A DNA stretch of 64,000 nucleotides, taken from positions 25,483-89,482 of the forward strand of contig JBKHES010000001.1 in NCBI GenBank assembly GCA_046540695.1. Direction: 5' to 3'. The position numbers and the translations under genes are program-made. The notes below the pieces were generated by a model. The model had not been told where the DNA came from and searched no databases. It was given only the letters and a program-made list of their open reading frames with translations. Each line of letters opens with the position of its first letter. The first letter of the stretch is position 1. Origin of the DNA: Desulfobacterales bacterium (GTDB lineage: Bacteria; Desulfobacterota; Desulfobacteria; Desulfobacterales; Desulfosalsimonadaceae). Below are positions 27,182-46,961 of the stretch, piece by piece.

Positions 27182-28432
27182 ATGGATTTTACCTACGTAG
27201 ACCACGAAAAGTCCGCAAAAATCAAAGTTATCGGAATCGGAGGGGGCGGCGGCAATGCAGTTAACAACATGATAGACTCCCAGCTAAACGGGGTGAAATT
27301 TATTGCCGCCAATACCGATGCCCAGGCCCTGGCCCATGCAAAGGCAAACACCAAGATCCAGCTTGGCGAGCAGCTCACGCAGGGGCTGGGCGCCGGTGCA
27401 GACCCCAACGTGGGAAGGGACGCCGCACTGGAGTCTGCCGATCTTCTCCGGGAGGCCTTGAGCGAAAGCCACATGATTTTCATCGCAGCAGGCCTCGGCG
27501 GGGGCACTGGTACCGGAGCCGCACCGGTTATTGCCGAGATCTGCAAGGAGGTCGGCGCCCTTACGGTTGCTGTCGTGACAAAACCGTTTAAGTTCGAGGC
27601 AAAAAAGCGCAGCAAGCAGGCTGAAGACGGCATAGCCAGGTTAAAGGAGGTTGCAGACACTGTTATAACAATTCCAAACGACCGCCTGCGCGGGCTTGCC
27701 AAAAAAAACGCCACCCTGATAGATATGTTCAGGATGGCCGACGAGATACTTCACCATTCCGTAAAGGGCATCACCGACTTGATCATGCATCCGGGGCTGA
27801 TCAACCTGGACTTTGCAGACGTCAAAACCATCATGTCCAAGTCCGGCATGGCAATTATGGGCATAGGTATTTCCGATGGCGACAACCGTGCAATCGAGGC
27901 TGCGGAAAAGGCGATTTCCCATCCCCTTCTCGAGGACAATTCCATTTCCGGAGCCAAGGGTGTGCTGATGAATATCACGAGCAGCTCAGAACTTACAATG
28001 GAAGAAGCCATAGAGGCGTCCGAGCGGATATACAATGAAATCGGCGACGATGACGTGGAGATCATCTGGGGTACAGCCATGGATGACGGCCTTGGCGATG
28101 AAATGCGTATCACGGTTATAGCCACCGGCATAGGCGAGGAAAGCGGGGAGGATATGCATCTTCCCAGAAAGTCGGTGCGGCAGTTAAAAGATGTCAAGCG
28201 CGGAAGGGTTCGCGATTACACCACCGAAGACAGGGAATACGAAAAGACCCTTAACCAGCCAACTTTCTGGCGGGTAAAGCAGCAGGAGCAGCAGGAGCAG
28301 AAGCAGCAGGCAGAGCAGAAGAAGGAATCCGGCAGCGAACAGAAAAGAAAAAAAGCAGGAAACAGCATGGATGACTATTTTGACCTTGACATGCTCGATG
28401 TCCCGACTTTCCTGCGCAGGAAGGCTGATTAG
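27182..28432 (+). CDS. ftsZ: Cell division GTPase FtsZ
   Basis: GIGGGGGNAVNNM, GGGTGTGAAPVIAE, NDRL. The linker is Q/E/K-rich (QQEQQEQKQQAEQKK). The C-terminal peptide DYFDLDMLDVPTFLRRKAD is conserved. Confidence 0.97.
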   Translation: MDFTYVDHEKSAKIKVIGIGGGGGNAVNNMIDSQLNGVKFIAANTDAQALAHAKANTKIQLGEQLTQGLGAGADPNVGRDAALESADLLREALSESHMIFIAAGLGGGTGTGAAPVIAEICKEVGALTVAVVTKPFKFEAKKRSKQAEDGIARLKEVADTVITIPNDRLRGLAKKNATLIDMFRMADEILHHSVKGITDLIMHPGLINLDFADVKTIMSKSGMAIMGIGISDGDNRAIEAAEKAISHPLLEDNSISGAKGVLMNITSSSELTMEEAIEASERIYNEIGDDDVEIIWGTAMDDGLGDEMRITVIATGIGEESGEDMHLPRKSVRQLKDVKRGRVRDYTTEDREYEKTLNQPTFWRVKQQEQQEQKQQAEQKKESGSEQKRKKAGNSMDDYFDLDMLDVPTFLRRKAD

Positions 28433-28554: not shown

Positions 28555-29268
28555 ATGGATGCCGGGCTCAACTCGGAAAGCATGCCCTCTGAAAGGAATC
28601 GCCAGAACATGTCTGATAACAAAGAACGAAAACTCGCTTACGGTATTGTACTGGCCTGCCTGGTTGTGGGGATTGTCTCCTACAGCCTGGTGAAGACCGG
28701 GGCGCCAGAAGATACCCAGGATCCCGAAGAACCGGTACGCGTTTTCTACGAGACCACCGGCGAAAACGTCCTTTTCGACCACATGACCCACAGTGAAAGC
28801 TACGGTCTTGAGTGCACAGACTGCCATCACAAGGTGGCATGGGAAAGCGAAGAGGACGTGGACATGGAGATTTCGTGCGGCAGCTGCCACACATCCGAAA
28901 GCAGCCATGAGCCCGCCCTCGGCGAAGACGGGCTGTTTGACCATGATGCTCATGTAGACGGGTACGGGCTGTCATGCACAGATTGTCATCATATGTATGA
29001 TGAAGACAGCGATGACGAGCCCCAGAACTGCAACGCATGTCACGGTGAAACCGGAGACGACGATATGCCGGGCCTTACGGACTCTTACCATCAGCAGTGC
29101 ATAGAGTGCCACGTTGATTTCGGAAGCGGCCCGACAACCGAGAACTGCAGTGACTGTCACGGGGAACGCAACAGGACTGATGCGTTTCATGACCAGTGCA
29201 TCGGTTGCCATGAAGATATGGGAACAGGACCCGCGGAAGATGATTGCGCCAGCTGCCACGGATTTTGA
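28555..29268 (+). CDS. Membrane-anchored octahaem cytochrome c (cytochrome c3 / class III-like)
   Basis: Eight CxxCH motifs: CTDCH, CGSCH, CTDCH, CNACH, CIECH, CSDCH, CIGCH, CASCH. There is an N-terminal hydrophobic anchor (LAYGIVLACLVVGIVSYSLV). Alternative start at ATG 28609 (MSDNKERK..). Confidence 0.9.
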   Translation: MDAGLNSESMPSERNRQNMSDNKERKLAYGIVLACLVVGIVSYSLVKTGAPEDTQDPEEPVRVFYETTGENVLFDHMTHSESYGLECTDCHHKVAWESEEDVDMEISCGSCHTSESSHEPALGEDGLFDHDAHVDGYGLSCTDCHHMYDEDSDDEPQNCNACHGETGDDDMPGLTDSYHQQCIECHVDFGSGPTTENCSDCHGERNRTDAFHDQCIGCHEDMGTGPAEDDCASCHGF

Positions 29269-29327
29269 TCTTTCGCGCGGCCGGGGTTTAACATCCATAA
29301 AATTCAAGCCCAAGCAAAGGGAGATCC

Positions 29328-30602
29328 ATGATTAAGAGGTCTTTTTTCGGAATCGCTGCACCAAGGCTAACCTACGATTTAATAGAGGATGTAAGGTCAG
29401 AGCCGGTTTCTGTTGAGCCGAAACAGCGGGTTACACTGTTTATAGATGCAGCTTTCAAAAACGCGGGCGACGCCCTTATCAAGAAGGGCGATTCGGTGGC
29501 TGCCGGACAGCGCCTGCAGCTTTTCGAAGACGAGCCGGCAGGGTACACCGTATCCCCTGTTTCCGGGAAAATCTCCGAGGTTTCGCCTTTCATAGGAATG
29601 ATGGAAAAACAAAGGACCGCCGTCGTCATAGACATCGAAGAGCAGGGCGGGGAAGCAGTAAACGACGGGTTCAGGGAGATATCGAAGAGTCCGGATCTCG
29701 AAGGGGCGGCACGTTTTCTTGATGCACTTCCCGGCAAACCGGATCTGGCCAGGTTTATCGATCCCGGCAGGCCTGTAAAAACAATAGTTATTCTCGGCGC
29801 TGACCGGGATCTGATGAGCGTTTCCAGTCAATATGTAATCAAGACCGGCGTTTCATCAATCAAGTCCGGCATTGACATACTTCGTAAACTAACCGGCGTG
29901 CAGAACGTTGTGCTCACGGTCGCCCAGAATCAGGTCCAGGCAGCAGGTTCCGCTGCTGCAGGCGTTAGATCTGTCGGCAACGTTTATCCATCGGCCCATC
30001 CGGAGATGATACTGAGGCATCAGCTTTATGAGCAGACAGAACAGGGCGGGATAGCCCTTCTTACTGCGGAAGCTGTTTCTGCAATAGGCGAGGCATTCAA
30101 CAGCGGTACCATCCCCCTTGAAAAAGTTATCACCGTTGTGAAAAAAGACGGCACCCGCCGGCTTGTAACCGCGCCCATGGGAACCCCGGTCTCAGATATC
30201 CTTGATGCGGTCGGAGAGAAGGTTCAGGCAGGTGATCGTCTTATTGCAGGCGGGCCAATGACAGGGGCCGCGCTGTATTCAGTGGAACAGCCTGTGGAGC
30301 AGGATACTGATACAGTGATTGTTCAGGGAAAAGATATTATAGTGGAGGGAACCGATACCCCCTGCACCAATTGCGGGGAATGCGTTCGGATCTGCCCGGT
30401 CAATATCCCGGTAAACGAATTGGTTAGATACATGGATGCCGGGGAATACGAACAGGCCGCAGAGAACGCCTCTTTGTTTTCCTGTATAGAATGCGGGCTG
30501 TGCGCGTATGTGTGCGAGTCCCGGATACCGATCTTTCAGTTTATCAGGCTGGCCAAACATGCTGTAAATCGCATGAACGCAGCGGAGGAAGCAAATGCCT
30601 AA
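29328..30602 (+). CDS. rnfC: Rnf complex subunit C-like (2x[4Fe-4S] retained; NuoF-like FMN/NADH motifs apparently absent)
   Basis: 424 aa with an NqrA/RnfC-type N-terminal barrel (IKKGDSVAAGQRL..VSPVSGKISEV), AGGPMTG, and CTNCGECVRICP plus CIECGLCAYVCE. No GGAGFP or ECEPY motifs (see findings). Confidence 0.85.
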   Translation: MIKRSFFGIAAPRLTYDLIEDVRSEPVSVEPKQRVTLFIDAAFKNAGDALIKKGDSVAAGQRLQLFEDEPAGYTVSPVSGKISEVSPFIGMMEKQRTAVVIDIEEQGGEAVNDGFREISKSPDLEGAARFLDALPGKPDLARFIDPGRPVKTIVILGADRDLMSVSSQYVIKTGVSSIKSGIDILRKLTGVQNVVLTVAQNQVQAAGSAAAGVRSVGNVYPSAHPEMILRHQLYEQTEQGGIALLTAEAVSAIGEAFNSGTIPLEKVITVVKKDGTRRLVTAPMGTPVSDILDAVGEKVQAGDRLIAGGPMTGAALYSVEQPVEQDTDTVIVQGKDIIVEGTDTPCTNCGECVRICPVNIPVNELVRYMDAGEYEQAAENASLFSCIECGLCAYVCESRIPIFQFIRLAKHAVNRMNAAEEANA

Positions 30603-31563
30603 TCGGATGAAGCTCACAGTATCACACGCCCCGTTCTGGCATGACGGGAGCAGTGTAAACACAAAGTACTACAACATAATTGCGGCCACCATGATTGCGG
30701 TTATAGCCGGCCTGCTGCAGTTCGGAGTTCCTGCTCTTGCGGTGATTGCCCTTTCGGTAGGCTCGGCCATGGCCTGGGAACTTGCCATGAACCTTGCCAT
30801 GCGCCGGCCGGTAACCATCGGAGACGGCAACGCTGCATTGATCGGCCTTCTGTTTGCGATGCTGATGCCCGCGGTTGTGCCCTGGTGGGTGGTTGTAACA
30901 GGAACTTTGATTGCCGTTGTGATAGGCAAACAGATTTACGGCGGAATAGGCGGCAACCCTTTTAATCCGGTGGTGGTAGCATATGCAATTCTTCTGATTT
31001 CCTGGCCGGTTTACCTTAATTTCAACGCAGCCCTTGTGGACTACAACTTTGATTTTAATGCCGCATACCCGCTTATGCTCTACAAGTCAATGGGCCCTGA
31101 TGCCCTGGAATCCTTCAGCACTGCGGGTCTGCTTCTGGGCAGGCAGGCAGGCGGCATAGGCACGACATTCGGGCTTGGGCTGATCATAGGCGGAATATAT
31201 TTGATTGCCAGGGGATTTATTCGCTGGGAAATTCCTGCTGCCTTTCTGGTAAGCATGTTTGTCACCGCCCTGTGCTTCAGTATTTATGATCCTGAGGTTT
31301 ACGCAGGCCCGGGGTTTCATATACTTACGGGATATACCCTCATAGGAGCCTTTTTTCTTGCCCCGGAGGATTCCTCTTCGCCGGTTAATTTTGTGCCAAT
31401 GCTCATATACGGGGCTCTTGGCGGGTTTTTAACCGTTCTTATAAGAAATATCGGCGCTCATGTGGACGGGGTTATATACGCTATCCTGATCATGAATCTG
31501 GTTCATCCGATCATACAAAAAATCAGACCCAAAGCGATGGGAAGGATTATGCATCATGCGTGA
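30595..31563 (+). CDS. rnfD: Rnf complex subunit D (polytopic membrane subunit)
   Basis: 322 aa. PWWVVVTGTLIAVVIGKQIYGGIGGNPFNPVVVAYAILLISWP is the RnfD/NqrB signature block. Confidence 0.92.
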   Translation: MPNRMKLTVSHAPFWHDGSSVNTKYYNIIAATMIAVIAGLLQFGVPALAVIALSVGSAMAWELAMNLAMRRPVTIGDGNAALIGLLFAMLMPAVVPWWVVVTGTLIAVVIGKQIYGGIGGNPFNPVVVAYAILLISWPVYLNFNAALVDYNFDFNAAYPLMLYKSMGPDALESFSTAGLLLGRQAGGIGTTFGLGLIIGGIYLIARGFIRWEIPAAFLVSMFVTALCFSIYDPEVYAGPGFHILTGYTLIGAFFLAPEDSSSPVNFVPMLIYGALGGFLTVLIRNIGAHVDGVIYAILIMNLVHPIIQKIRPKAMGRIMHHA

Positions 31564-32149
31564 AATCGTTAAAATGGTCATCGTCCTGACGGTGCTGAGC
31601 AGCCTGTCCGGCGGATTGCTTGCGGCCCTGAACAATAAGACCGAGGACCGTATTGATAACCAGGTATTAAAATTCGTCCAGGGACCGGCCGTTGAAAAGA
31701 TCATGGAGGGTGCTGAAAATGACCCGGTTAAAGACAGGTTCTCGCTTAGTATTGATGATGAGGATACGGACTTTTTCGTAGGAATATTTGACGGCGAGCC
31801 CAGGACGGTTGCACTTGAAACCTCTGCCTCGGGCTATGGCGGAGACGTGGGAGTGATTGTTGCAATAGACGTTGAAAAAGGTGAGATTTTCGGCGTGGAG
31901 GTTACAACGCATAATGAGACGCCGGGTATCGGTGCAACCGTAGAAACCAACGAGGACTTCAAAGGGGAGTTCGAGGGAATGGAACTTGACGGGGATTTCG
32001 CGGTAAAGGACGACGACGGCGACATAACGGCCATTGCCGGAGCGACTGTAACGTCCCGCGCTGTCTGCAAGGCCGTGCGCAGGGCTGCCGACATTTACCA
32101 GGAGAAGAGATCGCAAATCAATGACCAGGTGAAAACCTTTACCGGCTAG
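31556..32149 (+). CDS. rnfG: Rnf complex subunit G (FMN-binding)
   Basis: 197 aa with an N-terminal TM helix, ETPGIG, and the flavinylation motif ITAIAGATVTSRAV. Confidence 0.92.
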   Translation: MREIVKMVIVLTVLSSLSGGLLAALNNKTEDRIDNQVLKFVQGPAVEKIMEGAENDPVKDRFSLSIDDEDTDFFVGIFDGEPRTVALETSASGYGGDVGVIVAIDVEKGEIFGVEVTTHNETPGIGATVETNEDFKGEFEGMELDGDFAVKDDDGDITAIAGATVTSRAVCKAVRRAADIYQEKRSQINDQVKTFTG

Positions 32150-32162
32150 GAGTGAATCCATT

Positions 32163-32756
32163 ATGGCAAAAACCATCGGGCAGGAATTTGTAAAAGGCTT
32201 ATGGGAAGAGATCCCTCCATTTCGACTGGTGCTCGGGCTTTGCCCGACGCTTGCAGTGACAAAGTCGGTTGAAAACGGTATAGGGATGGGGCTTGCAACC
32301 ACATTCGTGCTGGTATGCGCCAATCTTCTGGTTTCAATATTAAGCGGCGTCATTCCTTCAAAGATCAGGATCGCATGTTTTATCATTATTATAGCCACCT
32401 TTGTGACAGTGGTTGAGCTGATGATGCAGGCCTACACCTACCAGTTGTTCCAGGAGCTGGGGATATTTATCCCCTTGATCGTGGTAAACTGTATCGTGCT
32501 TGGAAGATCCGAGGCATTTGCTTCCAAAAACCCCATTGTGCCTTCTGTTGCAGACGGTCTTGGCATAGGCATCGGGTTTACCCTTTCGCTGACAGCAATC
32601 AGCGCTGTACGCGAAAGCCTCGGAAGCGGCACTCTTATGGGTGCCGAGGTGTTCGGTTCTTCCTATGAGCCCTTATCATTCATGGTGGAGGCGCCTGGTG
32701 CTTTCATCTGCCTCGGGCTGCTTTTGTGCCTGATGAATATTGTCAGTAAAAAATAA
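32163..32756 (+). CDS. rnfE: Rnf complex subunit E
   Basis: 197 aa. LGLCPTLAV and VVNCIVLGR blocks (conserved Cys pair). Confidence 0.93.
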   Translation: MAKTIGQEFVKGLWEEIPPFRLVLGLCPTLAVTKSVENGIGMGLATTFVLVCANLLVSILSGVIPSKIRIACFIIIIATFVTVVELMMQAYTYQLFQELGIFIPLIVVNCIVLGRSEAFASKNPIVPSVADGLGIGIGFTLSLTAISAVRESLGSGTLMGAEVFGSSYEPLSFMVEAPGAFICLGLLLCLMNIVSKK

Positions 32757-32858
32757 ACGTCCGCCCTTCCGCAATACAAATGTCAACGGGGGACTTGAAA
32801 ACTATATGCTGCCCGGCCTGAAGGCGGCCGGTTAACTAGGAGGCACGGGAGAAATATT

Positions 32859-33434
32859 ATGGGCGACTATCTGGTCCTGATAATCAGCAGCATGCTGATC
32901 AATAACATCGTTCTGGCGCAGTACCTGGGAATATGCCCGTTTATCGGCACTTCCAAGAAAATGGAAACCGCAACAGGCATGGCCGGAGCTGTTGTATTTG
33001 TCATGACCCTGGCTGCTATCATAACGTGGTGCATAGACACGTATCTTTTGAAAACCCTGGGTATTGAATATCTGCGGACCATTGCGTTTATTCTCGTTAT
33101 TGCCTCTCTGGTGCAGTTCGTGGAAATGTTTCTCAAGAAAAGCATTCCCGCCCTTTATGCCGGGCTCGGAATATTCCTCCCCCTTATTACCACAAACTGC
33201 GCGGTCATGGGTGTCTGCCTGATAAATATTCAGGAGGAATATATTTTCATTGAGGCTCTGGTTTCCTCGATTGCCTATGCTCTTGGTTTCGGGATCGCCC
33301 TGATTCTTTTCGCAGGTGTACGCGAGCGTGTGGTGCTCGGCAGGGTGCCCAAACCTCTGCAGGACACTTCAATCGCTCTTGTTACCGCCGGCATGCTGGC
33401 GCTTGCGTTTATCGGTTTCAGGGGGCTTGTTTAG
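32859..33434 (+). CDS. rnfA: Rnf complex subunit A
   Basis: 191 aa. LGICPFIG and TTNCAVMGV blocks. GGAGG RBS. Confidence 0.93.
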   Translation: MGDYLVLIISSMLINNIVLAQYLGICPFIGTSKKMETATGMAGAVVFVMTLAAIITWCIDTYLLKTLGIEYLRTIAFILVIASLVQFVEMFLKKSIPALYAGLGIFLPLITTNCAVMGVCLINIQEEYIFIEALVSSIAYALGFGIALILFAGVRERVVLGRVPKPLQDTSIALVTAGMLALAFIGFRGLV

Positions 33435-33502
33435 AGTCAATAAGTGATTATAATACGTTTTCAGTTGGATAAAATCTGATATATCAATAAAAGAGGCATA
33501 AG

Positions 33503-35584
33503 GTGATAGAAGCAATACTGTTTACCCTTGGGCTGGGAGGCACATGCGGAGTAGCACTAAGTGTGGCTTCCAGGATATTCTACGTTTATGAGGACCCGCG
33601 GATTGCCAGGGTGGAAGATCTGCTGGCGGGGGCCAACTGCGGCGGATGCGGCTATACCGGGTGCTCTGCAGCAGCCGAGGCTATTGTCAACGGTGAAGCT
33701 GCTCCCAACGCTTGCATACTGATCGGTCCTGATAATGTAGCTGAGATCGCTGCGATAATGGGCTCGGAAGCCGGAACCGCAGAACCCTACAAATCCTACA
33801 ACAACTGCCAGGGCGGTGACCGTGCCACTGACAGGTTTTTTTATCAGGGATTGAACCGGTGCAGTGCAGTCAGTTCCCTTTACGGCGGCAAGAGAGACTG
33901 CAGCATCGGGTGCCTCGGATTTGGTGACTGTGTGCGTGCATGCAAGTTCGACGCCCTGGAAATCGGTCCCAACGGATACCCTATTGTTGACAAGGATAAA
34001 TGCGTCGGCTGCGGGGCATGCGAGATAGTCTGCCCCAAGTCAATTATCGAGGTAAAGACCATGTCCCAGCGTCTTTTGCATCTCAATACCGAAGAAGACG
34101 CCCTTTCGCCCTGTCAGCAGACATGTCCCGCGGAAATCGATATCCCCCGTTATATAGACCACATAAGGCAGGGCGAATATGAGTCCGCCGTTGATACCAT
34201 AAGAGAGCGCAATCCGCTGCTGCTTGCCTGCGGCAGGGTGTGTCCCCATCCCTGCGAGGAATACTGCAGAAGAGCCATAGAAGACGAAGAGTCGGTTTCC
34301 ATTAACCAGCTAAAGCGTTTTGTGGCTGACATGGAGATGACTTCTGGCAAGAGACTGCCCATTTCCCGGGCTCCTGATACAGGAAAAAAGGTGGCAGTAA
34401 TCGGCGGCGGTCCTGCCGGGCTGAGCTGTGCCTACTTTCTCCGGCGTGTCGGGCACAGTGTAAACATATTTGAGGCCATGCCTAAGCTGGGAGGCATGCT
34501 CAGATACGGAATTCCTGAATACAGGCTTCCCAAGGCAGTACTTGATTGGGAAATTCAGGGAATACTGAATCTGGGGATTGAGCATCACAGCAACGTAAAG
34601 ATGGGCGTGGACTTTGACCTTGGCTCTCTGATCGGAGCAGGATTTGATGCAATATTTATGGGCGTAGGATCCTGGAAGGACTATAAGCTCAATATTCCCG
34701 GCGAGGATTTAGAAGGCTGTTATACAGGAATTGATTTTCTTTCCCGTATCGGCAACCAGCAGCCCGTTGAGGTAGGCAAGCGTGCCGCAGTTATAGGGGG
34801 CGGCAATACGGCCATTGACTGTGCAAGAACCCTGGTGCGTTTAGGGCTTGAAAAGGTCTACATTGTATATCGCCGCACCCGCAAGGAAATGCCCGCCAAT
34901 GAAGTTGAAATCGTGGCAGCCGGGCACGAGGGAATTGAATCCGTTTTTCTTGCGGCTCCCAACAAGGTGCTCGGAGATGACCAGGACAGGGTGAAAGGTC
35001 TTGAATATTTAAAGATGGAACTGGGCGAACCTGATGCCAGCGGACGCAGGAGGCCTGTGCCGGTGGAGGGATCTGAAACTGTGCTCGATGTTGATACGAT
35101 AATCACTGCCATCGGGCAGTCCACTGATACCACCTTCCGTACTCCCGGAACCCGGATGGACGAGCTAAATATTACCCGGTGGGGCACAATTGACGTTGAT
35201 CCGGGAACATGCCGCTCCAATGTTCCCTATATATTTGCAGCAGGAGACGGGGCAACAGGGCCCGCTCTTGTAGTGGACGCCATCGGAGGCGGCAGGCGGG
35301 CAGCCAGGGCGATAGACATGTTTCTCAAGGGCAGGGAGGTCAAGCCCGAGCCCGGGGCACTCTTGTCCCAGAGGCATATTCCGGAGTCATTGTTTGAGAG
35401 GGTCCCGGGAATTAAGAAGAGCAAAAGAGCCGAGATGCCTGAGATGCCGGTCCGCGAAAGGTGCTCTAATTTCCTTGAGGTTGACCAGGTTCTGCCGGAA
35501 CCCGAAGCAATCAGCGAAGCCGTTCGCTGCCTGAATTGCTGCAGATTATGTTATGATCCTGACAGTGATCAAAATGCTGCATAA
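33503..35584 (+). CDS. rnfB: RnfB fused to a GltD/NfnB/SudA-like NAD(P)H-dependent FAD/Fe-S oxidoreductase
   Basis: 693 aa, GTG start. Residues 1-~190 are RnfB: a TM helix, NCGGCGYTGC, and CLGFGDCVRAC plus CVGCGACEIVCP. Residues ~200-693 carry CQQTCPAEIDIP, GRVCPHPCEEYC, KKVAVIGGGPAGL (FAD), AAVIGGGNTAIDCA with VYIVYRR (NAD(P)H), FAAGDG and a terminal CLNCCRLC. Confidence 0.88.
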   Translation: MIEAILFTLGLGGTCGVALSVASRIFYVYEDPRIARVEDLLAGANCGGCGYTGCSAAAEAIVNGEAAPNACILIGPDNVAEIAAIMGSEAGTAEPYKSYNNCQGGDRATDRFFYQGLNRCSAVSSLYGGKRDCSIGCLGFGDCVRACKFDALEIGPNGYPIVDKDKCVGCGACEIVCPKSIIEVKTMSQRLLHLNTEEDALSPCQQTCPAEIDIPRYIDHIRQGEYESAVDTIRERNPLLLACGRVCPHPCEEYCRRAIEDEESVSINQLKRFVADMEMTSGKRLPISRAPDTGKKVAVIGGGPAGLSCAYFLRRVGHSVNIFEAMPKLGGMLRYGIPEYRLPKAVLDWEIQGILNLGIEHHSNVKMGVDFDLGSLIGAGFDAIFMGVGSWKDYKLNIPGEDLEGCYTGIDFLSRIGNQQPVEVGKRAAVIGGGNTAIDCARTLVRLGLEKVYIVYRRTRKEMPANEVEIVAAGHEGIESVFLAAPNKVLGDDQDRVKGLEYLKMELGEPDASGRRRPVPVEGSETVLDVDTIITAIGQSTDTTFRTPGTRMDELNITRWGTIDVDPGTCRSNVPYIFAAGDGATGPALVVDAIGGGRRAARAIDMFLKGREVKPEPGALLSQRHIPESLFERVPGIKKSKRAEMPEMPVRERCSNFLEVDQVLPEPEAISEAVRCLNCCRLCYDPDSDQNAA

Positions 35585-35763: not shown

Positions 35764-36363
35764 ATGGCTGTGAGCCCTGATCAGAAGAGAAAGCAGATCG
35801 AAAACGAGCTTATTTCACTGAGGCGCCAGGCTGATGAAATGGATGCAAGGATCCGGGCATATCTTTCAGACCGTAAAAACAAGCCTCATCCGCGTCACCA
35901 GGAGCTTATAGAAAAAGTCCAGAGATACAGGATCAATCCCTCGGTTTCAACAAAACGTCTTGAGACCATGCTCGATAATCTTCAGTGGAAGATATATTAT
36001 TACAGCCGTGCCTGGCGTCAGCTCTGGGACAACGCGGATGCAGCAAGAAGGCGGGAGGAAATCAGAGAAAAAACTTCACCTGACCAGCCCGGCGGCTCTG
36101 TTGAATCCGGCCGATCATCACGGGACCACGACAGGATCTATTCAGTGGACAGGCTCTGGGAGATCCAGAAGCAAAAGCTTTCAGCGCTGGGTGACGACCC
36201 GGCCCCTGAAAGCAGGGAAGGCTTTATAAAGCGGATACGGGAGAGATATGGAAAGCTGGCCTCTGAGAAAAAACAGGATGAAGAAATAGTCATGAGGTTT
36301 GACAAAAAGAGCCGCCGGTGCACCCTGTCGCTTAAAAAACGGGATCGTGTCCCGGAGCAGTAG
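35764..36363 (+). CDS. Hypothetical highly charged protein (no family recognised)
   Basis: 199-aa ORF with a strong RBS (GGAGGTG 5 nt upstream). It is Lys/Arg/Glu-rich with a predicted coiled character. Its last 32 nt overlap the convergent rluD 3' end. Confidence 0.55.
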   Translation: MAVSPDQKRKQIENELISLRRQADEMDARIRAYLSDRKNKPHPRHQELIEKVQRYRINPSVSTKRLETMLDNLQWKIYYYSRAWRQLWDNADAARRREEIREKTSPDQPGGSVESGRSSRDHDRIYSVDRLWEIQKQKLSALGDDPAPESREGFIKRIRERYGKLASEKKQDEEIVMRFDKKSRRCTLSLKKRDRVPEQ

Positions 36364-37381
36364 AAATGTTTTCAGGATCGGCAATCTGCCTTCCCATATG
36401 CCTGAGAATTGATTCTCGGAGCGCGGTCATGTCTCCGGGCAGCGGGGCTGAAAAAAAAACGCGTCTGCCGCTCTCAGGGTGACTGAAGGCGATTTTCGCC
36501 GCGTGAAGCATCTGCCTGGGTGCGGCGGCAATCATCCCCGCCAGTGCGGGATCCGACTTATGCTGGCGGCCGGGGTTTTTGTACCCGTAAACCCTGTCTC
36601 CTATTAGAGGATGCCCTGTGGAGGACAGGTGCACGCGGATCTGGTGGGTCCTGCCTGTTTTTATGATGCATTCCAGCATTGCAGATGATCTCCAGCGTTC
36701 CACCACCTTCCAAAGTGTCTCTGCATGCCTTGTTTTTTCGCCGCTGACATTTTCTGTTGTCATTTTTTTTCTGTGAACCGGGTGTCTGCGGATAGGCAGG
36801 GTTATCTTTCCTTCATCCGTATCAGGGCTGCCGTGGACAAAAGCTATATAGGTTTTTTCAACGCTGCGGGCTTTGAACTGCGCGGAAAGGCTCTGCCATG
36901 ATTCCGGGTTCCTTGCAATCACCAACAGGCCTGATGTGTCCTTGTCAAGGCGGTGGATGATGCCCGGCCTTTCGGGCTGCTCACACACGCTGCGCAGTTC
37001 CGGGAAATGATAGACAAGACCGTGGACAAGGGTGCCTGAGTAATTGCCTGCCGCGGGGTGTACTACGAGGCCTGCAGGCTTGTTGATAACTATAACCGAG
37101 CGGTCCTTGAATACAACGTCTATGTCAAGGGGCTCAGCCTCAAGCTGGCAGGATTGCTCCGCTGCACCGGCTTGATATGTGACTGTGTCTGCACTGGATA
37201 GCCTGTAACCAGGCTTTTTTTCGAAGCCATTGACAAGTACACGGCCTTCTTTAATCATGCGCGCCGCGGTATTTCGGGAGCAACCCGGCACGCTTGATGA
37301 CACGGCAAGATCCAGCCTTATACCGTCATCCTCAGGCCCGACAGTCAATGTTATTAATTCGGGATTCCTGACTGACGTCAT
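36332..37381 (-). CDS. rluD: RluA-family 23S rRNA pseudouridine synthase (RluD-like)
   Basis: N-terminal S4 domain, catalytic HRLDKDTSGLLVIA, and ..GRTHQIRVHL... Confidence 0.9.
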   Translation of the reverse strand: MTSVRNPELITLTVGPEDDGIRLDLAVSSSVPGCSRNTAARMIKEGRVLVNGFEKKPGYRLSSADTVTYQAGAAEQSCQLEAEPLDIDVVFKDRSVIVINKPAGLVVHPAAGNYSGTLVHGLVYHFPELRSVCEQPERPGIIHRLDKDTSGLLVIARNPESWQSLSAQFKARSVEKTYIAFVHGSPDTDEGKITLPIRRHPVHRKKMTTENVSGEKTRHAETLWKVVERWRSSAMLECIIKTGRTHQIRVHLSSTGHPLIGDRVYGYKNPGRQHKSDPALAGMIAAAPRQMLHAAKIAFSHPESGRRVFFSAPLPGDMTALRESILRHMGRQIADPENISTAPGHDPVF

Positions 37382-37938
37382 TCACCCTTGTCTGCGCCGT
37401 TGCCGTTGCTGCTGAAAAGGGACTCGATTTCCGCCCAGACCTTATCTTCGTCCTGGTCTTTGGCGGTGCAGATTTCCCGAACCAGCAGTGCCTTGGCAGT
37501 GTCCAGGAGTTTGCGTTCCCCGAAGGACAGATCCTTGGTCAGTTTAAGCAGGTAAAGATCCCGGAACACCGCTGCAACATCATAGGGGGAGCCTGTCTTG
37601 AGCCTTTCCATGTATTCCTTGTAACGCCGGTTCCAGGTCTGATTGTCCTGTATGTCGTGGTGCTGATCCGCAAGGACAGAGTAGACCTCCGGGATTTCCC
37701 CCTTGCCAATGACCGAGCGCAAACCAACGGACTCAACATTTGATGTGGGGATCATGATGACCATGCCGTTGTCGATGATTTTCATTATGTAAAAATCATG
37801 AGTATCGCCGTTGATTACCCGGCTTTCAATGGATTCGATTTGTCCTACCCCGTGGGCGGGGTATACTGCCAAGTCGCCGACCTGGAACCCTTCGCCGGGG
37901 GTCTTTTGGGATTGTGCTTTTTCAGCCATTTTTATCAC
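37378..37938 (-). CDS. carD: CarD/CdnL-family RNA-polymerase-binding transcription factor
   Basis: FQVGDLAVYPAHGVGQIESIESRVINGDTHDFYIMKI is the typical CarD_TRCF N-terminal domain. Stop and start overlap rluD (ATGA). Confidence 0.9.
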   Translation of the reverse strand: MIKMAEKAQSQKTPGEGFQVGDLAVYPAHGVGQIESIESRVINGDTHDFYIMKIIDNGMVIMIPTSNVESVGLRSVIGKGEIPEVYSVLADQHHDIQDNQTWNRRYKEYMERLKTGSPYDVAAVFRDLYLLKLTKDLSFGERKLLDTAKALLVREICTAKDQDEDKVWAEIESLFSSNGNGADKGE

Positions 37939-38002
37939 CCAAACTTAATGCAAGGTTTATTCCTAAAAAAACAACACCTAACATTTTTTTGAGATGAAAT
38001 CA

Positions 38003-38034
38003 ACAAAAAAAGGGCCGGTGAAATTCACCGGCCC
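38003..38034 (-). terminator. Rho-independent terminator of hppA
   Basis: The minus strand reads GGGCCGGTGA-att-TCACCGGCCC followed by TTTTTTTT, 30 nt after the hppA stop (38064). Confidence 0.85.
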
Positions 38035-38063
38035 TTCGCTAAATATTATTACAGGTTATGAAA

Positions 38064-40130: not shown

Positions 40131-40179
40131 GCCTACCTCCCTAAAACTTTAGGTTAATAAATAAGACACCCTGAACAAT

Positions 40180-40755
40180 TTACCTTTGATTAAATCGATT
40201 CATTGCTTCAGCCAAACCCCTGCTTATCATGGTGAGTACGGCATCTTCTGCATCCTGCATCACGGGTGCAAAAATTTTTTTCTCTTCAGCCGTGAACCTT
40301 CCAAGCACATAGTCGGTAACATCTATTGGCGGCTCAGGTCTTCCGATGCCGATTCTAAGCCTGGGAAAACTGCCGGACCCGAAGGCTTCCATAATGGATT
40401 TGACTCCGTTGTGCCCTCCGTGACCTCCTTTCGCTTTGATTTTGATTTGTCCTTTGTTTATATCCAGATCATCGTGTATTACAAGAACGTATTCGGCAGT
40501 AATGCCGAAATATTCTGCCAGTTGTCGAATTGGAGGGCCGCTTCGGTTCATGTAGGCCTGGGGCTTTGCAATAATTACGCGTGCATCTTCGCATCCGCCC
40601 CTTCCGAAGTTGGTACTGAATTTTTTCTGCTCAAGCGGGATGCGGCATCTATCTGCAACCTTTTCTGCAGCCATGAAGCCTACGTTGTGCCTTGTCTTCT
40701 GGTATTTTCTCCCCGGGTTGCCCAGACCGGCAATAAGCCAGGACGAAGGCTCCAT
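40180..40755 (-). CDS. pth: Peptidyl-tRNA hydrolase
   Basis: LIAGLGNPGRKYQKTRHNVGF (catalytic His), ..GGHGGHNG... Confidence 0.95.
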   Translation of the reverse strand: MEPSSWLIAGLGNPGRKYQKTRHNVGFMAAEKVADRCRIPLEQKKFSTNFGRGGCEDARVIIAKPQAYMNRSGPPIRQLAEYFGITAEYVLVIHDDLDINKGQIKIKAKGGHGGHNGVKSIMEAFGSGSFPRLRIGIGRPEPPIDVTDYVLGRFTAEEKKIFAPVMQDAEDAVLTMISRGLAEAMNRFNQR

Positions 40756-41426: not shown

Positions 41427-41462
41427 GTCTTATCCTCCGGTATATTTTCTTTTGTAGTATTG

Positions 41463-42413: not shown

Positions 42414-42460
42414 GGTCTCCCCTTGGAGGTTGAGGTTATGGTTGAAGCCTTTTAGCAAGA

Positions 42461-42535
42461 TGGCTGGGGCGGGAGGATTCGAACCTCCGAATGCAGGAAC
42501 CAAAATCCTGTGTCTTACCGCTTGACGACGCCCCA
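42461..42535 (-). tRNA. tRNA-Gln (anticodon UUG)
   Basis: The minus strand reads TGGGGCGTCGTCAAGCGGTAAGACACAGGATTTTGGTTCCTGCATTCGGAGGTTCGAATCCTCCCGCCCCAGCCA. It folds as a cloverleaf with anticodon loop TTTTGGT (TTG), a TPsiC arm GGTTCGAATCC and an encoded CCA. It is close to E. coli tRNA-Gln as I recall it. Confidence 0.93.
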
Positions 42536-42575
42536 GCAGCATGTCGGCCTGCGTGCCAGCGGCAGATACACAGTG

Positions 42576-44924: not shown

Positions 44925-44974
44925 TTTTTCAGCCTCCTTGGAGTTTGCCCGGGCAATACCCGGCGCTTTCCGGA

Positions 44975-45274: not shown

Positions 45275-45360
45275 AATCTTGTTTCACCCCCTTGTTGGTT
45301 TGAATAAGACTGAAACCGAAAATCCGGATCGGTTTCGGATGTTGGTATCCGGATTTGTTT

Positions 45361-46947: not shown

Positions 46948-46961
46948 CCTCCGGGGCTCCT

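What the first reader, a model, noticed from the sequence alone, without database searches (positions are those of the whole stretch)
28555..35584. Locus-level hypothesis: an Rnf variant with its nucleotide site moved from RnfC to RnfB and a periplasmic haem outlet
Four observations combine here. The RnfA/E core keeps its conserved Cys pairs (GLCPT/NCIVLG and GICPF/NCAVMG) and the RnfG FMN site is intact. RnfC lacks its flavin/NADH motifs. RnfD seems to lack its covalent-FMN Thr. RnfB has gained a GltD-like NAD(P)H/FAD module, and an octahaem cytochrome is encoded first. One reading is that electrons enter from NAD(P)H via RnfB-GltD, cross RnfA/E to the periplasmic RnfG flavin and leave to the multihaem cytochrome, or flow in the reverse direction. 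The remaining RnfC Fe-S clusters might instead serve ferredoxin. This is speculation built on motif-level evidence.
Basis: inference. Interest (0 to 1): 0.65.

Follow-up and report, generated by a model that had tools for sequence, protein, structure and literature searches.

The report
Cytochrome-linked Rnf2-type respiratory operon
This is a seven-gene operon for a known but never biochemically tested variant of the Rnf membrane ion pump of sulfate-reducing bacteria, which has lost the two flavin sites of its usual NAD+ branch, has gained an NAD(P)H-binding module on another subunit, and is encoded with a periplasmic eight-haem cytochrome.

Summary
All four motif-level observations hold on proper alignment. 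The operon (28555-35584, + strand) encodes an anchored octahaem c3-family cytochrome followed by RnfC-D-G-E-A-B. RnfC keeps its eight Fe-S cysteines but has no FMN/NADH loops. RnfD has Tyr158 where solved Rnf complexes carry the flavinylated Thr. RnfG keeps its flavinylation Thr. RnfA/E keep the [2Fe-2S] cysteines and the ion-pair residues. RnfB (693 aa) is fused to an NfnB/GltD-like FAD/NAD(P)H module.

This is not local decay. In 67 evaluable related loci, 53 have the cytochrome plus a degenerate RnfC plus a Thr-less RnfD. Twelve are canonical in all three respects, and none is discordant between RnfC and RnfD.

The RnfB fusion does not co-vary strictly. Desulfovibrionaceae loci share the RnfC and RnfD losses but have a short RnfB.

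The large RnfB, the degenerate RnfC and the cytochrome as an extra electron outlet are already published as "Rnf2" (the Desulfobacula toluolica Tol2 type). Rnf2 is part of the Desulfobacteraceae core genome and is abundantly formed in proteomes.

I did not find two points in print: the RnfD Thr loss, and its extension to the Desulfovibrio-type Rnf.

The most likely function is ion-coupled electron transfer between cytoplasmic ferredoxin/NAD(P)H and the periplasmic cytochrome pool. This is inferred, not shown.

The parts
28555..29268 (+). Membrane-anchored periplasmic octahaem cytochrome c of the c3/HmcA-TmcA family. The longest ORF gives 237 aa; the public annotation starts at 28609 and gives 219 aa.
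   Evidence: There are eight CxxCH motifs, at residues 87, 108, 141, 159, 182, 198, 215 and 231. A KERK segment followed by a 20-residue hydrophobic stretch forms the N-terminal anchor. The mature part has 48 D/E against 4 K/R. Pfam gives Cytochrom_CIII, C7 and c3_2, and NCBIfam gives TmcA/HmcA-like hits below cut-off. The best PDB relatives are HmcA and cytochrome c3.
29328..30602 (+). RnfC variant (424 aa). It has an N-terminal barrel-sandwich domain, a degenerate middle domain without FMN/NADH loops, and a C-terminal 2x[4Fe-4S] domain.
   Evidence: Pfam gives RnfC_N and Fer4 hits only, with no Complex1_51K or SLBB hit. The protein scores 157 bits on TIGR01945, below the cut-off of 246, and gives weak NqrA hits. 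It was aligned to 7zc6_C, 8ahx_C and 9eri_C.
29724..29816 (+). Region of RnfC that corresponds to the FMN/NADH loops of canonical RnfC. Here it reads ALPGKPDLARFI ... LGADRDLM in place of GxGGAxFPTHVKL ... NGAECEPY.
   Evidence: The loops are absent from all 62 cytochrome-clade RnfCs and present in all 15 canonical ones.
30363..30518 (+). The two [4Fe-4S] motifs of RnfC: CTNCGECVRICP and CIECGLCAYVCE.
   Evidence: All eight Cys are invariant in 62 of 62 variant RnfCs.
30595..31563 (+). RnfD (322 aa), an integral membrane subunit.
   Evidence: PF03116 scores 287 bits and TIGR01946 scores 225 bits, above its cut-off.
31066..31068 (+). Codon for Tyr158 of RnfD, at the position of the FMN-bearing Thr (T156 in A. 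woodii).
   Evidence: The 120 closest homologues mostly have Tyr here, otherwise Phe, Asp, Glu or Cys, and none of the variants listed has Thr. In the loci the aligned column is Y/D/A/F/S/E/P/N in the cytochrome clade and T in all canonical RnfDs.
31556..32149 (+). RnfG (197 aa), the periplasmic FMN-binding subunit. Its flavinylation motif AGAT(164)VTS is intact; the Thr codon is 32045-32047.
   Evidence: PF04205 is hit, and NF045876 (RnfG_DVU2794) scores 235 bits against a cut-off of 205. The motif aligns with solved RnfG chains and is nearly universal in the related loci.
32163..32756 (+). RnfE (197 aa). It carries C27 and C110 (ligands of the membrane [2Fe-2S] cluster) and the R69/E117 ion pair.
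   Evidence: These residues are invariant in 77 of 77 sequences. Their roles are taken from PMC11889175.
32859..33434 (+). RnfA (191 aa). It carries C26 and C114 (ligands of the [2Fe-2S] cluster) and K33.
33503..34087 (+). RnfB proper (residues 1-195). It has a membrane helix, an N-terminal [4Fe-4S] domain (C46, C49, C54, C71) and a 2x[4Fe-4S] ferredoxin-like domain (C133-C147 and C167-C177).
   Evidence: Pfam gives FeS (PF04060) and Fer4. The best PDB relatives are 7zc6_B and 9eri_B, with E-values of 1e-50 and 1e-44. These Cys are invariant in 30 fused RnfBs.
34088..35584 (+). NfnB/GltD-like module fused to RnfB (residues 196-693). It has two [4Fe-4S] sites completed by C-terminal Cys676, Cys679 and Cys683, an FAD site (GGGPAG, from residue 301), and a nucleotide site (GGGNTA from residue 432, with YRR at 456-458).
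   Evidence: Pfam gives Fer4_20 and Pyr_redox_2. NCBIfam PRK12771 scores 512 bits and TIGR01316 scores 374 bits. The best PDB relatives are 9bov_A, 9n5u_A (NfnA), 8oh5_C and 4ylf_B.

Best explanation
The locus is an Rnf2-type operon (the Desulfobacula toluolica Tol2 type) of a Desulfosalsimonas-like sulfate reducer from a hypersaline mat.

Shown by sequence:
- The ion-coupling core is intact. This comprises the RnfA/E [2Fe-2S] ligands, the RnfE Arg/Glu pair and the RnfG covalent-FMN site.
- Both flavin sites of the canonical return branch are gone: the FMN-bearing Thr of RnfD and the FMN/NAD(H) domain of RnfC.
- RnfB carries a complete NfnB/GltD-like FAD, NAD(P)H and 2x[4Fe-4S] module.
- The first gene encodes an anchored periplasmic octahaem cytochrome.

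Inferred:
- Electrons from reduced ferredoxin enter at the RnfB Fe-S domain.
- Electrons from NAD(P)H enter at the fused flavoprotein module. NADPH is favoured by the YRR motif.
- They run down the RnfB cluster chain to the membrane [2Fe-2S] cluster. That step drives Na+ or H+ translocation, as in A. woodii Rnf.
- They then reach the periplasmic RnfG-FMN.
- Instead of returning through RnfD-FMN and RnfC-FMN to NAD+, they leave to the multihaem cytochrome and from there to the periplasmic cytochrome c3 / Qrc / menaquinone route of sulfate respiration.
- The reaction may also run in reverse, using the ion gradient to make reduced ferredoxin from periplasmic electrons.

The role of the conserved RnfC Fe-S clusters, and of a possibly retained riboflavin site in RnfD, is not explained by this model.
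For: Residue-level alignment to solved Rnf chains is. Cofactor roles of those residues are taken from the A. woodii structure paper (PMC11889175).

Conservation:
- The 120 nearest RnfD homologues lack the Thr.
- Most of the roughly 45 nearest 50%-identity cluster representatives lack the D-x-x-[ST]-x-A-T-P-L motif, while most remoter ones keep it.
- In 67 evaluable loci, 53 combine a Thr-less RnfD, a degenerate RnfC and a cytochrome. Twelve are canonical in all three respects and two are variant without an adjacent cytochrome.
- The RnfG motif and the AE1 ligands are conserved throughout.
- The Fe-S, FAD and NAD(P)H motifs of the fused RnfB are conserved in 30 sequences.

Expression:
- Rnf2 subunits are abundant and constitutive in the proteomes of Desulfobacteraceae (PMC5109826; PMC11887813).
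- Salt-lake metatranscriptome contigs that are mostly 90-95% identical cover all seven genes.

Precedents:
- M. acetivorans Rnf, whose operon begins with the multihaem MmcA, does not use NAD(P). It is modelled as passing electrons from RnfG to the cytochrome (PMC4023990; PMC12174285).
- In D. alaskensis, whose Rnf shares the RnfC and RnfD state, attempts to show Fd:NAD+-coupled ion gradients in vesicles failed. Rnf is needed for growth on periplasmically oxidised H2 and formate (PMC4841214; PMC4215793).
Against: No activity, cofactor or structural data exist for any Rnf2 complex. The path to the cytochrome is anatomical inference.

All eight Fe-S cysteines of RnfC are invariant. The riboflavin ligands of RnfD are mostly kept: N124, and E258 in place of Asp. 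The 'abandoned' arm is therefore still under selection.

In D. alaskensis G20 the operon's decahaem cytochrome was dispensable under conditions where rnf was essential.

The cytochrome was detected in only one of many proteomic conditions in D. multivorans.

NAD(P)H and typical c3 haems have similar potentials, so NAD(P)H-driven ion pumping toward a c3-type acceptor is energetically doubtful. This point rests on my own knowledge.

Six related loci lack rnfB next to rnfA, and two fused-RnfB loci lack an adjacent cytochrome.
Confidence: 0.55

Rival explanations
1. The circuit is unchanged and only the nucleotide site has moved. Electrons still make the U-turn: ferredoxin to RnfB, to the RnfA/E cluster, to RnfG-FMN, to RnfD (non-covalent flavin or riboflavin), to the RnfC Fe-S clusters. 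They then pass from RnfC into the neighbouring NfnB-like module of RnfB and reduce NAD(P)+. On this reading the complex is a ferredoxin:NAD(P)+ pump and the cytochrome is only a side outlet or inlet.
For: The eight RnfC cysteines are invariant. The RnfD riboflavin ligands are largely conserved. In the A. woodii structure RnfC contacts RnfB on the cytoplasmic side (PMC11889175). The operon cytochrome is dispensable in G20. In two-subunit Nqr/Rnf-like complexes, a Thr-less RnfD-like subunit is proposed to borrow the flavin of the RnfG-like subunit (PMC10979944).
Against: The same RnfC and RnfD state occurs in 13 Desulfovibrionaceae-type loci, and in 120 of 120 RnfC homologues of that type, that have a short RnfB and hence no nucleotide site in the operon-encoded subunits. 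The NfnB-like clusters are tethered about 25 residues from the RnfB ferredoxin domain, which invites a cytoplasmic short circuit that would uncouple the pump. The strict association with a first-gene cytochrome (53 of 55 variant loci) would be left unexplained.
Confidence: 0.2
2. The complex is a membrane-wired electron bifurcase. The NfnB-like FAD splits the electron pair of NADPH. One electron goes uphill to ferredoxin. The other goes downhill through the Rnf membrane path to the periplasmic cytochrome or menaquinone pool, which takes the place of the NfnA/NAD+ branch. The reaction could also run as the reverse confurcation.
For: The fused module is closest to the NfnB-like parts of the bifurcating StnABC and NfnABC-type enzymes and of NfnB itself. 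All of its cofactor motifs are conserved. No NfnA-like gene is present in the cluster. Canonical rnf loci of related taxa sit next to complete nfnAB genes, which shows a functional link between Rnf and Nfn.
Against: The same module type works without bifurcation in glutamate synthase (GltD), a point from my own knowledge. No high-potential acceptor site next to the FAD can be identified from sequence. Relatives with a short RnfB manage without the module.
Confidence: 0.1
3. The complex is a convergent, NQR-like NAD(P)H:menaquinone oxidoreductase. As in Na+-NQR, the nucleotide site sits on the RnfB/NqrF side, RnfC has become an NqrA-like scaffold, and a quinone is reduced at RnfD/RnfC.
For: The middle of RnfC gives NqrA hits: PRK05352.1-4 scores 97 bits and NQRA_2nd gives a weak hit. 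The nucleotide entry is on the same side as NqrF.
Against: NqrA has no cofactors, whereas this RnfC keeps eight invariant Fe-S cysteines. NqrB keeps the covalent-FMN Thr that is lost here. There is no NqrF homologue. The cytochrome association is unexplained. Some Desulfobacteraceae, such as D. toluolica, carry a true Nqr in addition.
Confidence: 0.05
4. The changes reflect local decay. The RnfC and RnfD changes are degenerative mutations in a dying or misassembled operon.
For: None beyond the missing motifs themselves.
Against: The reading frames are intact. The same states are found in hundreds of homologues and 55 loci across several orders. Cofactor ligands elsewhere are invariant. Rnf2 proteins are abundant in proteomes, and the operon is covered by metatranscriptome contigs.
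Confidence: 0.01

Closest known systems
Rnf2, the 'Desulfobacula toluolica Tol2-type' Rnf of Desulfobacteraceae. It was reported with the Tol2 genome (reference 49 of PMC5109826), in Desulfococcus multivorans (PMC5109826) and in the 2025 Desulfobacteraceae meta-analysis (PMC11887813).
   Same: [quoted passage not shown] RnfC lacks the NADH-ubiquinone oxidoreductase/FMN and SLBB domains. A cytochrome c3-family gene sits in the cluster. The gene order and the taxon match. All of these defining features were tested here and met.
   Different: The cytochrome here has eight haems rather than the 4-5 of most relatives. The published descriptions call the remaining subunits 'very similar' and do not mention the loss of the RnfD flavinylation Thr. 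They also group the Desulfovibrionaceae Rnf with the canonical Rnf1, which my alignments do not support.
Canonical Rnf, the ferredoxin:NAD+ oxidoreductase solved from A. woodii (9eri), C. tetanomorphum (7zc6) and A. vinelandii (8ahx).
   Same: All six subunits are homologous. The RnfA/E [2Fe-2S] ligands, the RnfE Arg/Glu pair, the RnfG covalent-FMN Thr, the RnfB N-terminal Fe-S domains and the RnfC 2x[4Fe-4S] domain are all present.
   Different: There is no FMN/NADH site in RnfC and no flavinylation Thr in RnfD. RnfB carries an extra FAD/NAD(P)H module, and the operon includes an extra cytochrome gene. Two defining features were tested and not met, so the locus should not be filed as a ferredoxin:NAD+ oxidoreductase on homology alone.
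Methanosarcina acetivorans Rnf with the multihaem cytochrome MmcA, a ferredoxin:methanophenazine pathway.
   Same: The multihaem cytochrome gene comes first and is followed by rnfCDGEAB. RnfC is reported to carry only two [4Fe-4S] motifs. The complex does not use NAD(P) through RnfC. The published model has RnfG-FMN passing electrons to the cytochrome.
   Different: That system is archaeal, its acceptor is methanophenazine, and it has no nucleotide-binding module on RnfB. I did not compare its sequences directly, so the resemblance is functional and rests on the literature. Membership was not tested.
Desulfovibrio-type Rnf, dhcA-rnfCDGEAB-apbE (D. vulgaris, D. alaskensis G20).
   Same: It belongs to the same RnfD clade. 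It has a first-gene multihaem cytochrome, an RnfC without the FMN loop and an RnfD without the Thr. The window's RnfG passes the NCBIfam model named after DVU2794.
   Different: Its RnfB is short (about 280-315 aa) and lacks the NfnB-like module. The cytochrome has 9-10 haems. apbE sits at the end of the operon.
Na+-NQR.
   Same: It shares the membrane core, and its nucleotide entry is on the RnfB/NqrF side. RnfC gives weak NqrA-like hits.
   Different: There is no NqrF here. RnfC keeps its Fe-S clusters. The NqrB-type covalent-FMN Thr is absent, and no quinone site is shown.
Two-subunit Nqr/Rnf-like complexes (Méheust 2021; PMC10979944).
   Same: The RnfD-like subunit has lost its flavinylation Thr while the RnfG-like subunit keeps it. 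The proposed electron flow is one-way, from NAD(P)H to extracytosolic acceptors.
   Different: Those systems have only two subunits, an NqrF-type NAD domain fused to the RnfD-like protein, no RnfA/E core and no cytochrome.

Membership tests
Rnf complex (RnfABCDGE ferredoxin:NAD+ oxidoreductase) | Six homologous subunits encoded together. | tested here: met
   Pfam and NCBIfam hits cover all six subunits. RnfD, G, E and A score above the curated cut-offs, as does the RnfB N-terminal domain; RnfC scores below.
Rnf complex (RnfABCDGE ferredoxin:NAD+ oxidoreductase) | Four Cys of RnfA/RnfE that bind the membrane [2Fe-2S] cluster. | tested here: met
   RnfE C27 and C110 and RnfA C26 and C114 align with the A. 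woodii ligands. They are invariant in the related loci.
Rnf complex (RnfABCDGE ferredoxin:NAD+ oxidoreductase) | Covalent-FMN Thr in RnfG. | tested here: met
   AGAT164 aligns with the motif of solved RnfG chains and is conserved.
Rnf complex (RnfABCDGE ferredoxin:NAD+ oxidoreductase) | Covalent-FMN Thr in RnfD (motif [ST]-x-A-T-P-L). | tested here: not met
   Tyr158 occupies the position. The state is conserved across the clade.
Rnf complex (RnfABCDGE ferredoxin:NAD+ oxidoreductase) | FMN/NADH domain in RnfC (Complex1_51K plus SLBB; loops GxGGAxFP and AECEP). | tested here: not met
   Pfam gives no hit, and the protein is below the TIGR01945 cut-off. The loops are absent in the alignments.
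Rnf complex (RnfABCDGE ferredoxin:NAD+ oxidoreductase) | Fd:NAD+ oxidoreductase activity coupled to Na+/H+ transport. | not testable with these tools
   This needs the purified enzyme or membrane vesicles.
Rnf2 (D. toluolica Tol2-type Rnf of Desulfobacteraceae) | RnfB of about 700 aa with an added pyridine-nucleotide oxidoreductase/NAD-binding domain. | tested here: met
   RnfB is 693 aa. Fer4_20 and Pyr_redox_2 cover residues 202-596.
Rnf2 (D. toluolica Tol2-type Rnf of Desulfobacteraceae) | RnfC lacking the NADH-ubiquinone oxidoreductase/FMN and SLBB domains. | tested here: met
Rnf2 (D. toluolica Tol2-type Rnf of Desulfobacteraceae) | A cytochrome c3-family gene in the cluster. | tested here: met
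   The octahaem gene is first in the cluster.
Rnf2 (D. toluolica Tol2-type Rnf of Desulfobacteraceae) | Occurrence in Desulfobacteraceae / Desulfobacterales. | tested here: met
   The nearest RnfD homologues are named Desulfosalsimonas, Desulfosalsimonadaceae and Desulfobacterales. In the RnfD tree the window sits inside the Desulfobacterales clade.
Cytochrome-coupled Rnf of Methanosarcina (Rnf-MmcA) | A multihaem cytochrome c gene co-transcribed as the first gene of rnfCDGEAB. | tested here: inconclusive
   The gene order is the same. Metatranscriptome contigs cover the cytochrome and all rnf genes, but they do not prove a single transcript. The promoter and terminator scan gave counts at chance level.
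Cytochrome-coupled Rnf of Methanosarcina (Rnf-MmcA) | No interaction with NAD(P). | tested here: not met
   RnfC has no nucleotide site, but RnfB carries a conserved FAD/NAD(P)H module.
Cytochrome-coupled Rnf of Methanosarcina (Rnf-MmcA) | Electron transfer from RnfG-FMN to the cytochrome. | not testable with these tools
   This needs biochemistry or a multimer structure.
Na+-NQR | NqrF subunit (FAD, [2Fe-2S], NADH site). | tested here: not met
   No NqrF-like gene is in the cluster.
Na+-NQR | Cofactor-free NqrA and a covalent-FMN Thr in NqrB. | tested here: not met
   RnfC keeps eight Fe-S Cys, and RnfD lacks the Thr.
NfnB / GltD-like NADPH flavoprotein module | Fer4_20 domain with 2x[4Fe-4S], an FAD GxGxxG motif, and a second Rossmann fold with GxGxxA and YRR. 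| tested here: met
   Conservation across 30 fused RnfBs is.
NfnB / GltD-like NADPH flavoprotein module | A partner NfnA (or GltB) subunit encoded alongside. | tested here: not met
   No such gene is in the operon or its flanks. The canonical loci of other taxa do carry nfnA and nfnB. The rest of the genome was not available.

The most novel reading that the evidence does not exclude
The whole cytochrome-first Rnf clade of Desulfobacterota lost both flavins of the NAD+ branch. This includes the Desulfovibrio model-organism Rnf, which is routinely drawn as a ferredoxin:NAD+ pump. On this reading the clade is the bacterial counterpart of Methanosarcina Rnf-MmcA. It would be an ion-coupled ferredoxin:periplasmic-cytochrome oxidoreductase. 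In the Rnf2 form it would have an added NAD(P)H entry that may work as a membrane-wired, Nfn-like bifurcation site.
Probability: 0.4. Interest if true: 0.75.

Novelty: new member of a known kind. Interest (0 to 1): 0.5.

Why it matters
Rnf2 belongs to the core genome of the Desulfobacteraceae and is one of their most abundant redox complexes. These bacteria mineralise a large share of marine sediment carbon, yet the reaction Rnf2 catalyses is unknown.

The residue-level picture assembled here narrows the possibilities:
- The coupling core and the periplasmic flavin are kept.
- Both flavins of the NAD+ branch are lost.
- These changes are strictly linked to a cytochrome gene.
- The NAD(P)H module on RnfB is optional.

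The results also suggest that energy-conservation schemes for Desulfovibrio that assume Fd:NAD+ activity of Rnf need re-examination. A simple first experiment follows: on an SDS gel of the purified complex, only RnfG should fluoresce as a covalent flavoprotein.

Tried and rejected
A five-sequence alignment (A4) worked.
- A profile search with diverse Thr-less RnfDs returned mostly the same Desulfobacterales clade and added little.
- Pereira et al. 2011 (PMC3119410), the likely first description of cytochrome-linked Rnf in sulfate reducers, is not held. The D. toluolica Tol2 genome paper is known to me only through its citation in PMC5109826.
- I searched the fetched proteins for the 'SGTF' motif reported for M. 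acetivorans RnfD. This found no archaeal sequence, so the Methanosarcina RnfD and RnfC states were not checked directly.
- The promoter and terminator scan gave counts at chance level and says nothing about operon boundaries.
- My regex for the RnfD Thr flagged L053 as Thr-positive. That was a match elsewhere in the protein; the aligned site is Tyr.
- No apbE was found anywhere in the window.
- The local-decay explanation was considered and rejected (see the rival explanations).
- I did not run a single-chain structure prediction, because the open questions concern distances between subunits.
- The Fisher test (p about 1e-11) is not a valid probability, because the loci are phylogenetically related. 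The pattern may reflect one or two ancient events.

Full report
ANATOMY. On the + strand, directly after a complete dcw cell-division cluster that ends in ftsZ (27182-28432), lie seven closely spaced or overlapping genes:
- a 237-aa cytochrome (28555-29268)
- rnfC (29328-30602)
- rnfD (30595-31563)
- rnfG (31556-32149)
- rnfE (32163-32756)
- rnfA (32859-33434)
- a 693-aa rnfB (33503-35584)

The window comes from contig JBKHGC010000001.1 of assembly GCA_046539935.1, where the same genes are called. DNA runs that hold this sequence are hypersaline mat and lake metagenomes. The nearest RnfD homologues are named Desulfosalsimonas, Desulfosalsimonadaceae and Desulfobacterales.

CHECK OF THE OBSERVATIONS. 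All four hold.

- Cytochrome. It has eight CxxCH motifs, an N-terminal hydrophobic anchor and a very acidic mature part. It belongs to the c3/HmcA/TmcA family.
- RnfC. Pfam reports only RnfC_N and the 4Fe-4S dicluster domain, with no Complex1_51K or SLBB hit. The protein scores 157 bits against a cut-off of 246 for TIGR01945. In pairwise alignments with the three solved RnfC chains, the FMN loop G(M/L)GGAxFPTHVKL is replaced by ALPGK--PDLARFI. The loop NAAECEPY is replaced by LGADRDLM.
- RnfD. The protein is a good RnfD (287 bits on PF03116). The motif ttATPL of A. woodii and C. tetanomorphum reads fnAAYPL here. In A. woodii the FMN is covalently bound to T156 of that motif (PMC11889175). The window has Tyr158 at that position.
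- RnfG. It keeps AGAT164, aligned with the motif of solved RnfG chains.
- RnfE and RnfA. RnfE C27/C110 and RnfA C26/C114 align with the four ligands of the membrane [2Fe-2S] cluster.
- RnfB. Residues 1-195 are RnfB proper. The rest is Fer4_20 plus Pyr_redox_2. Its best solved relatives are the NfnB-like modules of 9bov_A, 9n5u_A ('NfnA'), 8oh5_C (StnC) and NfnB 4ylf_B, with E-values of 1e-95 to 1e-134.

IS IT A CONSERVED VARIANT OR LOCAL DECAY?

In the 120 closest RnfD homologues (61-100% identity), the position is mostly Tyr, otherwise Phe, Asp, Glu or Cys. None of the variants listed has Thr.

Among 150 cluster representatives from 1.8 billion proteins, most of the roughly 45 nearest lack the D-x-x-[ST]-x-A-T-P-L motif. 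Most remoter ones have it.

A scan of one genome per species returned 80 loci. I annotated them with the window's proteins as queries. Three architectures appear.

- Type I: cyt-C-D-G-E-A-B with a fused RnfB. It occurs in Desulfobacterales, Syntrophales and Desulfarculaceae. It also occurs in single Lentisphaeria, Neomarinimicrobiota and Spirochaetota MAGs, in a Pseudodesulfovibrio MAG and in Salidesulfovibrio brasiliensis.
- Type II: cyt-C-D-G-E-A-B(short)-ApbE. It occurs in Desulfovibrionaceae and Mailhella.
- Type III: A-B-C-D-G-E without a cytochrome. It occurs in Syntrophobacterales-like and other MAGs.

The RnfC loops GGAxFP and GAECEP, and the RnfD Thr, are present in every type III locus. 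They are absent from every type I and type II locus.

Pfam confirms this. Type III RnfCs score 174-181 bits on Complex1_51K and also hit SLBB and RnfC_N. Two of three type II RnfCs give only 23-26 bits, below the cut-off of 31.2 and starting after the FMN loop; the third gives no hit.

Of 67 loci in which all three features can be judged:
- 53 have a non-Thr RnfD, a degenerate RnfC and a cytochrome
- 12 have a Thr in RnfD, an intact RnfC and no cytochrome
- 2 (L067, L079) have a non-Thr RnfD, a degenerate RnfC and no adjacent cytochrome
- none is discordant between RnfC and RnfD

The loci are related by descent. In a neighbour-joining tree of RnfD, types I and II form one clade. The association may therefore go back to one or two ancient events, and the Fisher p-value is not a probability.

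WHAT IS KEPT. The following are conserved across the loci:
- The [S/T/A]GAT motif of RnfG is nearly universal in all three types.
- The four AE1 cysteines, the RnfE Arg69/Glu117 pair and RnfA Lys33 are invariant or nearly so. These residues are implicated in Na+ handling in A. woodii.
- All eight Fe-S cysteines of RnfC are invariant in 62 variant sequences.
- The two riboflavin ligands of A. woodii RnfD (N123, D249) correspond to N124 and E258 here. In the variant clade these positions are N in 45 of 68 sequences and E or D in 67 of 68.
- In 30 fused RnfBs, all Fe-S cysteines are invariant. These include three in the C-terminal tail that complete the NfnB-like clusters. The FAD motif GGGPaG, the nucleotide motif GGGNtA and y-r-r..EMPA are conserved at 60-90% or more.

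WHAT DOES NOT CO-VARY. The RnfB fusion is not tied to the other changes.
- Thirteen variant loci have a short RnfB.
- Six type I loci have no rnfB after rnfA. One of them (L040) otherwise keeps the window's downstream synteny.
- Fused RnfBs are scattered through the variant clade, including its Desulfovibrionales branch. This suggests an old fusion that was lost in some lineages. That is inference.
- The haem number also varies: 8 in the window's subclade, 4-6 in other type I loci and 9-10 in type II.

A last homology search used a Desulfovibrionaceae RnfC as the query. None of its 120 best homologues has the FMN loop. Several of them are named: Oleidesulfovibrio sp., Desulfovibrio psychrotolerans, Halodesulfovibrio marinisediminis, Desulfocurvibacter africanus and Salidesulfovibrio onnuriiensis. 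NCBI names several of them merely '4Fe-4S dicluster domain-containing protein'.

LITERATURE. The variant is known.

[quoted passage not shown] Its RnfB is about 700 aa and carries NAD-binding sites. [quoted passage not shown] The paper says a different mode of action had been suggested. It notes a cytochrome gene in the rnf2 cluster and reports proteomic detection of five of the six Rnf2 subunits under all conditions tested, with RnfA2 in six (PMC5109826).
- The 2025 Desulfobacteraceae study lists Rnf2 in the family's core genome and finds it abundantly and constitutively formed in six strains. [quoted passage not shown] It proposes that ferredoxin, and perhaps NADH, reduces the cytochrome via Rnf, and that the cytochrome then feeds Qrc and the menaquinone pool (PMC11887813).
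- The same text calls the other subunits 'very similar' and assigns Desulfovibrionaceae to the canonical Rnf1 type.
- I found no mention of the RnfD Thr loss in Rnf2, or of the missing FMN loop in Desulfovibrio RnfC, in the searchable library. Pereira et al. 2011 and the Tol2 genome paper could not be read.

Relevant experiments on relatives:
- In D. alaskensis G20, rnf is essential on H2, formate, ethanol, malate and fumarate, but the operon's decahaem cytochrome is dispensable (PMC4215793).
- Attempts to show Fd:NAD+-coupled ion gradients in G20 vesicles were unsuccessful (PMC4841214).
- M. acetivorans Rnf, whose operon starts with the multihaem MmcA, does not interact with NAD(P). It is modelled with RnfG-FMN donating to the cytochrome (PMC4023990; PMC12174285).
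- Two-subunit Nqr/Rnf-like complexes are a published case of an RnfD-like subunit that lost its flavinylation Thr while the RnfG-like partner kept it (PMC10979944).

MECHANISM.

Shown: the coupling core and the periplasmic flavin are intact. The two flavin sites of the return branch are missing. A complete FAD/NAD(P)H/Fe-S module is fused to RnfB. A periplasmic multihaem cytochrome is encoded first.

Inferred, at about 0.55: ferredoxin enters at the RnfB Fe-S domain, and NAD(P)H enters at the fused module. The electrons run through the RnfB cluster chain to the RnfA/E [2Fe-2S] cluster. That step drives ion translocation, as in A. woodii. The electrons then reach RnfG-FMN and leave to the octahaem cytochrome and the periplasmic c3/Qrc/menaquinone route. 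The reaction may also run in reverse.

Unexplained: RnfC keeps both clusters, and RnfD mostly keeps its riboflavin ligands.

The main rival (about 0.2) keeps the U-turn and lets the RnfC clusters feed the NfnB-like module. It explains the RnfC conservation. It does not explain type II relatives, which have no nucleotide site in the operon-encoded subunits, and it does not explain the tight link to the cytochrome.

A bifurcating reading is attractive (about 0.1). In it, NADPH would reduce both ferredoxin and the cytochrome. The fused module belongs to the NfnB lineage, no NfnA is present, and canonical rnf loci in related taxa sit next to nfnAB. However, GltD-type modules also work without bifurcation.

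An NQR-like quinone reductase (about 0.05) and decay (about 0.01) are unlikely.

EXPRESSION. Contigs from four salt-lake metatranscriptomes, mostly 90-95% identical to the window, cover all seven genes. Contig depth is a poor measure of expression, and DNA carry-over cannot be excluded. The scan for promoter-like and terminator-like sites gave counts at chance level.

VERDICT.

The locus is a new member of a known but biochemically uncharacterised kind. The extra value of this re-examination has three parts:
- the residue-level loss of the RnfD flavinylation site
- the strict association of that loss with the RnfC loss and the cytochrome
- the indication that the Desulfovibrio-type Rnf shares this state

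Noticed in passing
L042-L058, L065, L074, L081 and proteins P0359-P0478: Desulfovibrionaceae-type Rnf operons (dhcA-like cytochrome, rnfCDGEAB, apbE) have an RnfC in which the FMN loop is deleted and an RnfD without the flavinylation Thr. Rnf of Desulfovibrio is nevertheless generally treated as a ferredoxin:NAD+ oxidoreductase. All 120 best homologues of one such RnfC lack the loop, including those named Oleidesulfovibrio, D. psychrotolerans, Halodesulfovibrio and Desulfocurvibacter.
   Followed up: partly
L017, L018, L028, L030, L031, L040: Six Rnf2-type loci have no rnfB after rnfA, and tblastn finds none in the flank. L040 otherwise keeps the window's downstream synteny (the 199-aa ORF, rluD, carD, H+-PPase). 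In these genomes rnfB must be encoded elsewhere or be absent.
   Followed up: partly
L059:5720-8006, and likewise L063, L064, L066, L068, L072, L078, L080, L083, L084: Many canonical rnfABCDGE loci of Syntrophobacterales-like MAGs carry an NfnB/GltA-type gene shortly after rnfE. In L059, the one locus examined in detail, an NfnA-like gene lies between rnfE and the NfnB-type gene, forming a complete nfnAB pair. Rnf and Nfn are therefore linked as neighbours in some lineages and fused in others.
   Followed up: partly
L067 and L079 (Desulfobacterales MAGs): A further variant has a fused RnfB, an RnfC without the FMN loop but with residual Complex1_51K, SLBB and RnfC_N hits, and an RnfD with Pro at the Thr position. 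No cytochrome gene lies within 3 kb. These loci branch apart from the main cytochrome clade in the RnfD tree.
   Followed up: no
window:35764-36363 (+): A 199-aa ORF directly after rnfB has no Pfam or NCBIfam hit. A homologue sits in the same position in L040. Its function is unknown.
   Followed up: partly
L002:12015-13927: In a distant Rnf2-type locus (RnfD 43% identical to the window's), rnfB is followed by a second, four-haem cytochrome and by a NiFe hydrogenase small subunit.
   Followed up: no
L003:13018-15890; ApbE hits of about 722 aa also follow rnfB in L033 and L037: In the Syntrophales locus L003, rnfB is followed by a separate FMN_bind protein and a fused MFS-transporter/ApbE protein. 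L033 and L037 show a similarly sized ApbE-type protein at the same place. The window itself contains no apbE.
   Followed up: no
window:11410-28432 (+) and 36332-49444 (-): The flanks are ordinary housekeeping genes. Upstream is a complete dcw cell-division/murein cluster ending in ftsA and ftsZ. Downstream are RluD-type pseudouridine synthase, CarD, a membrane H+-pyrophosphatase (38064-40130), Pth, L25, PRPP synthetase, a GHMP kinase, a DegP-like protease, SerA, a GGDEF protein and phosphoglucomutase.
   Followed up: partly
window:31667-32398 (-): A 243-aa antisense ORF overlaps rnfG and rnfE. It is most likely a chance ORF opposite real genes.
   Followed up: no
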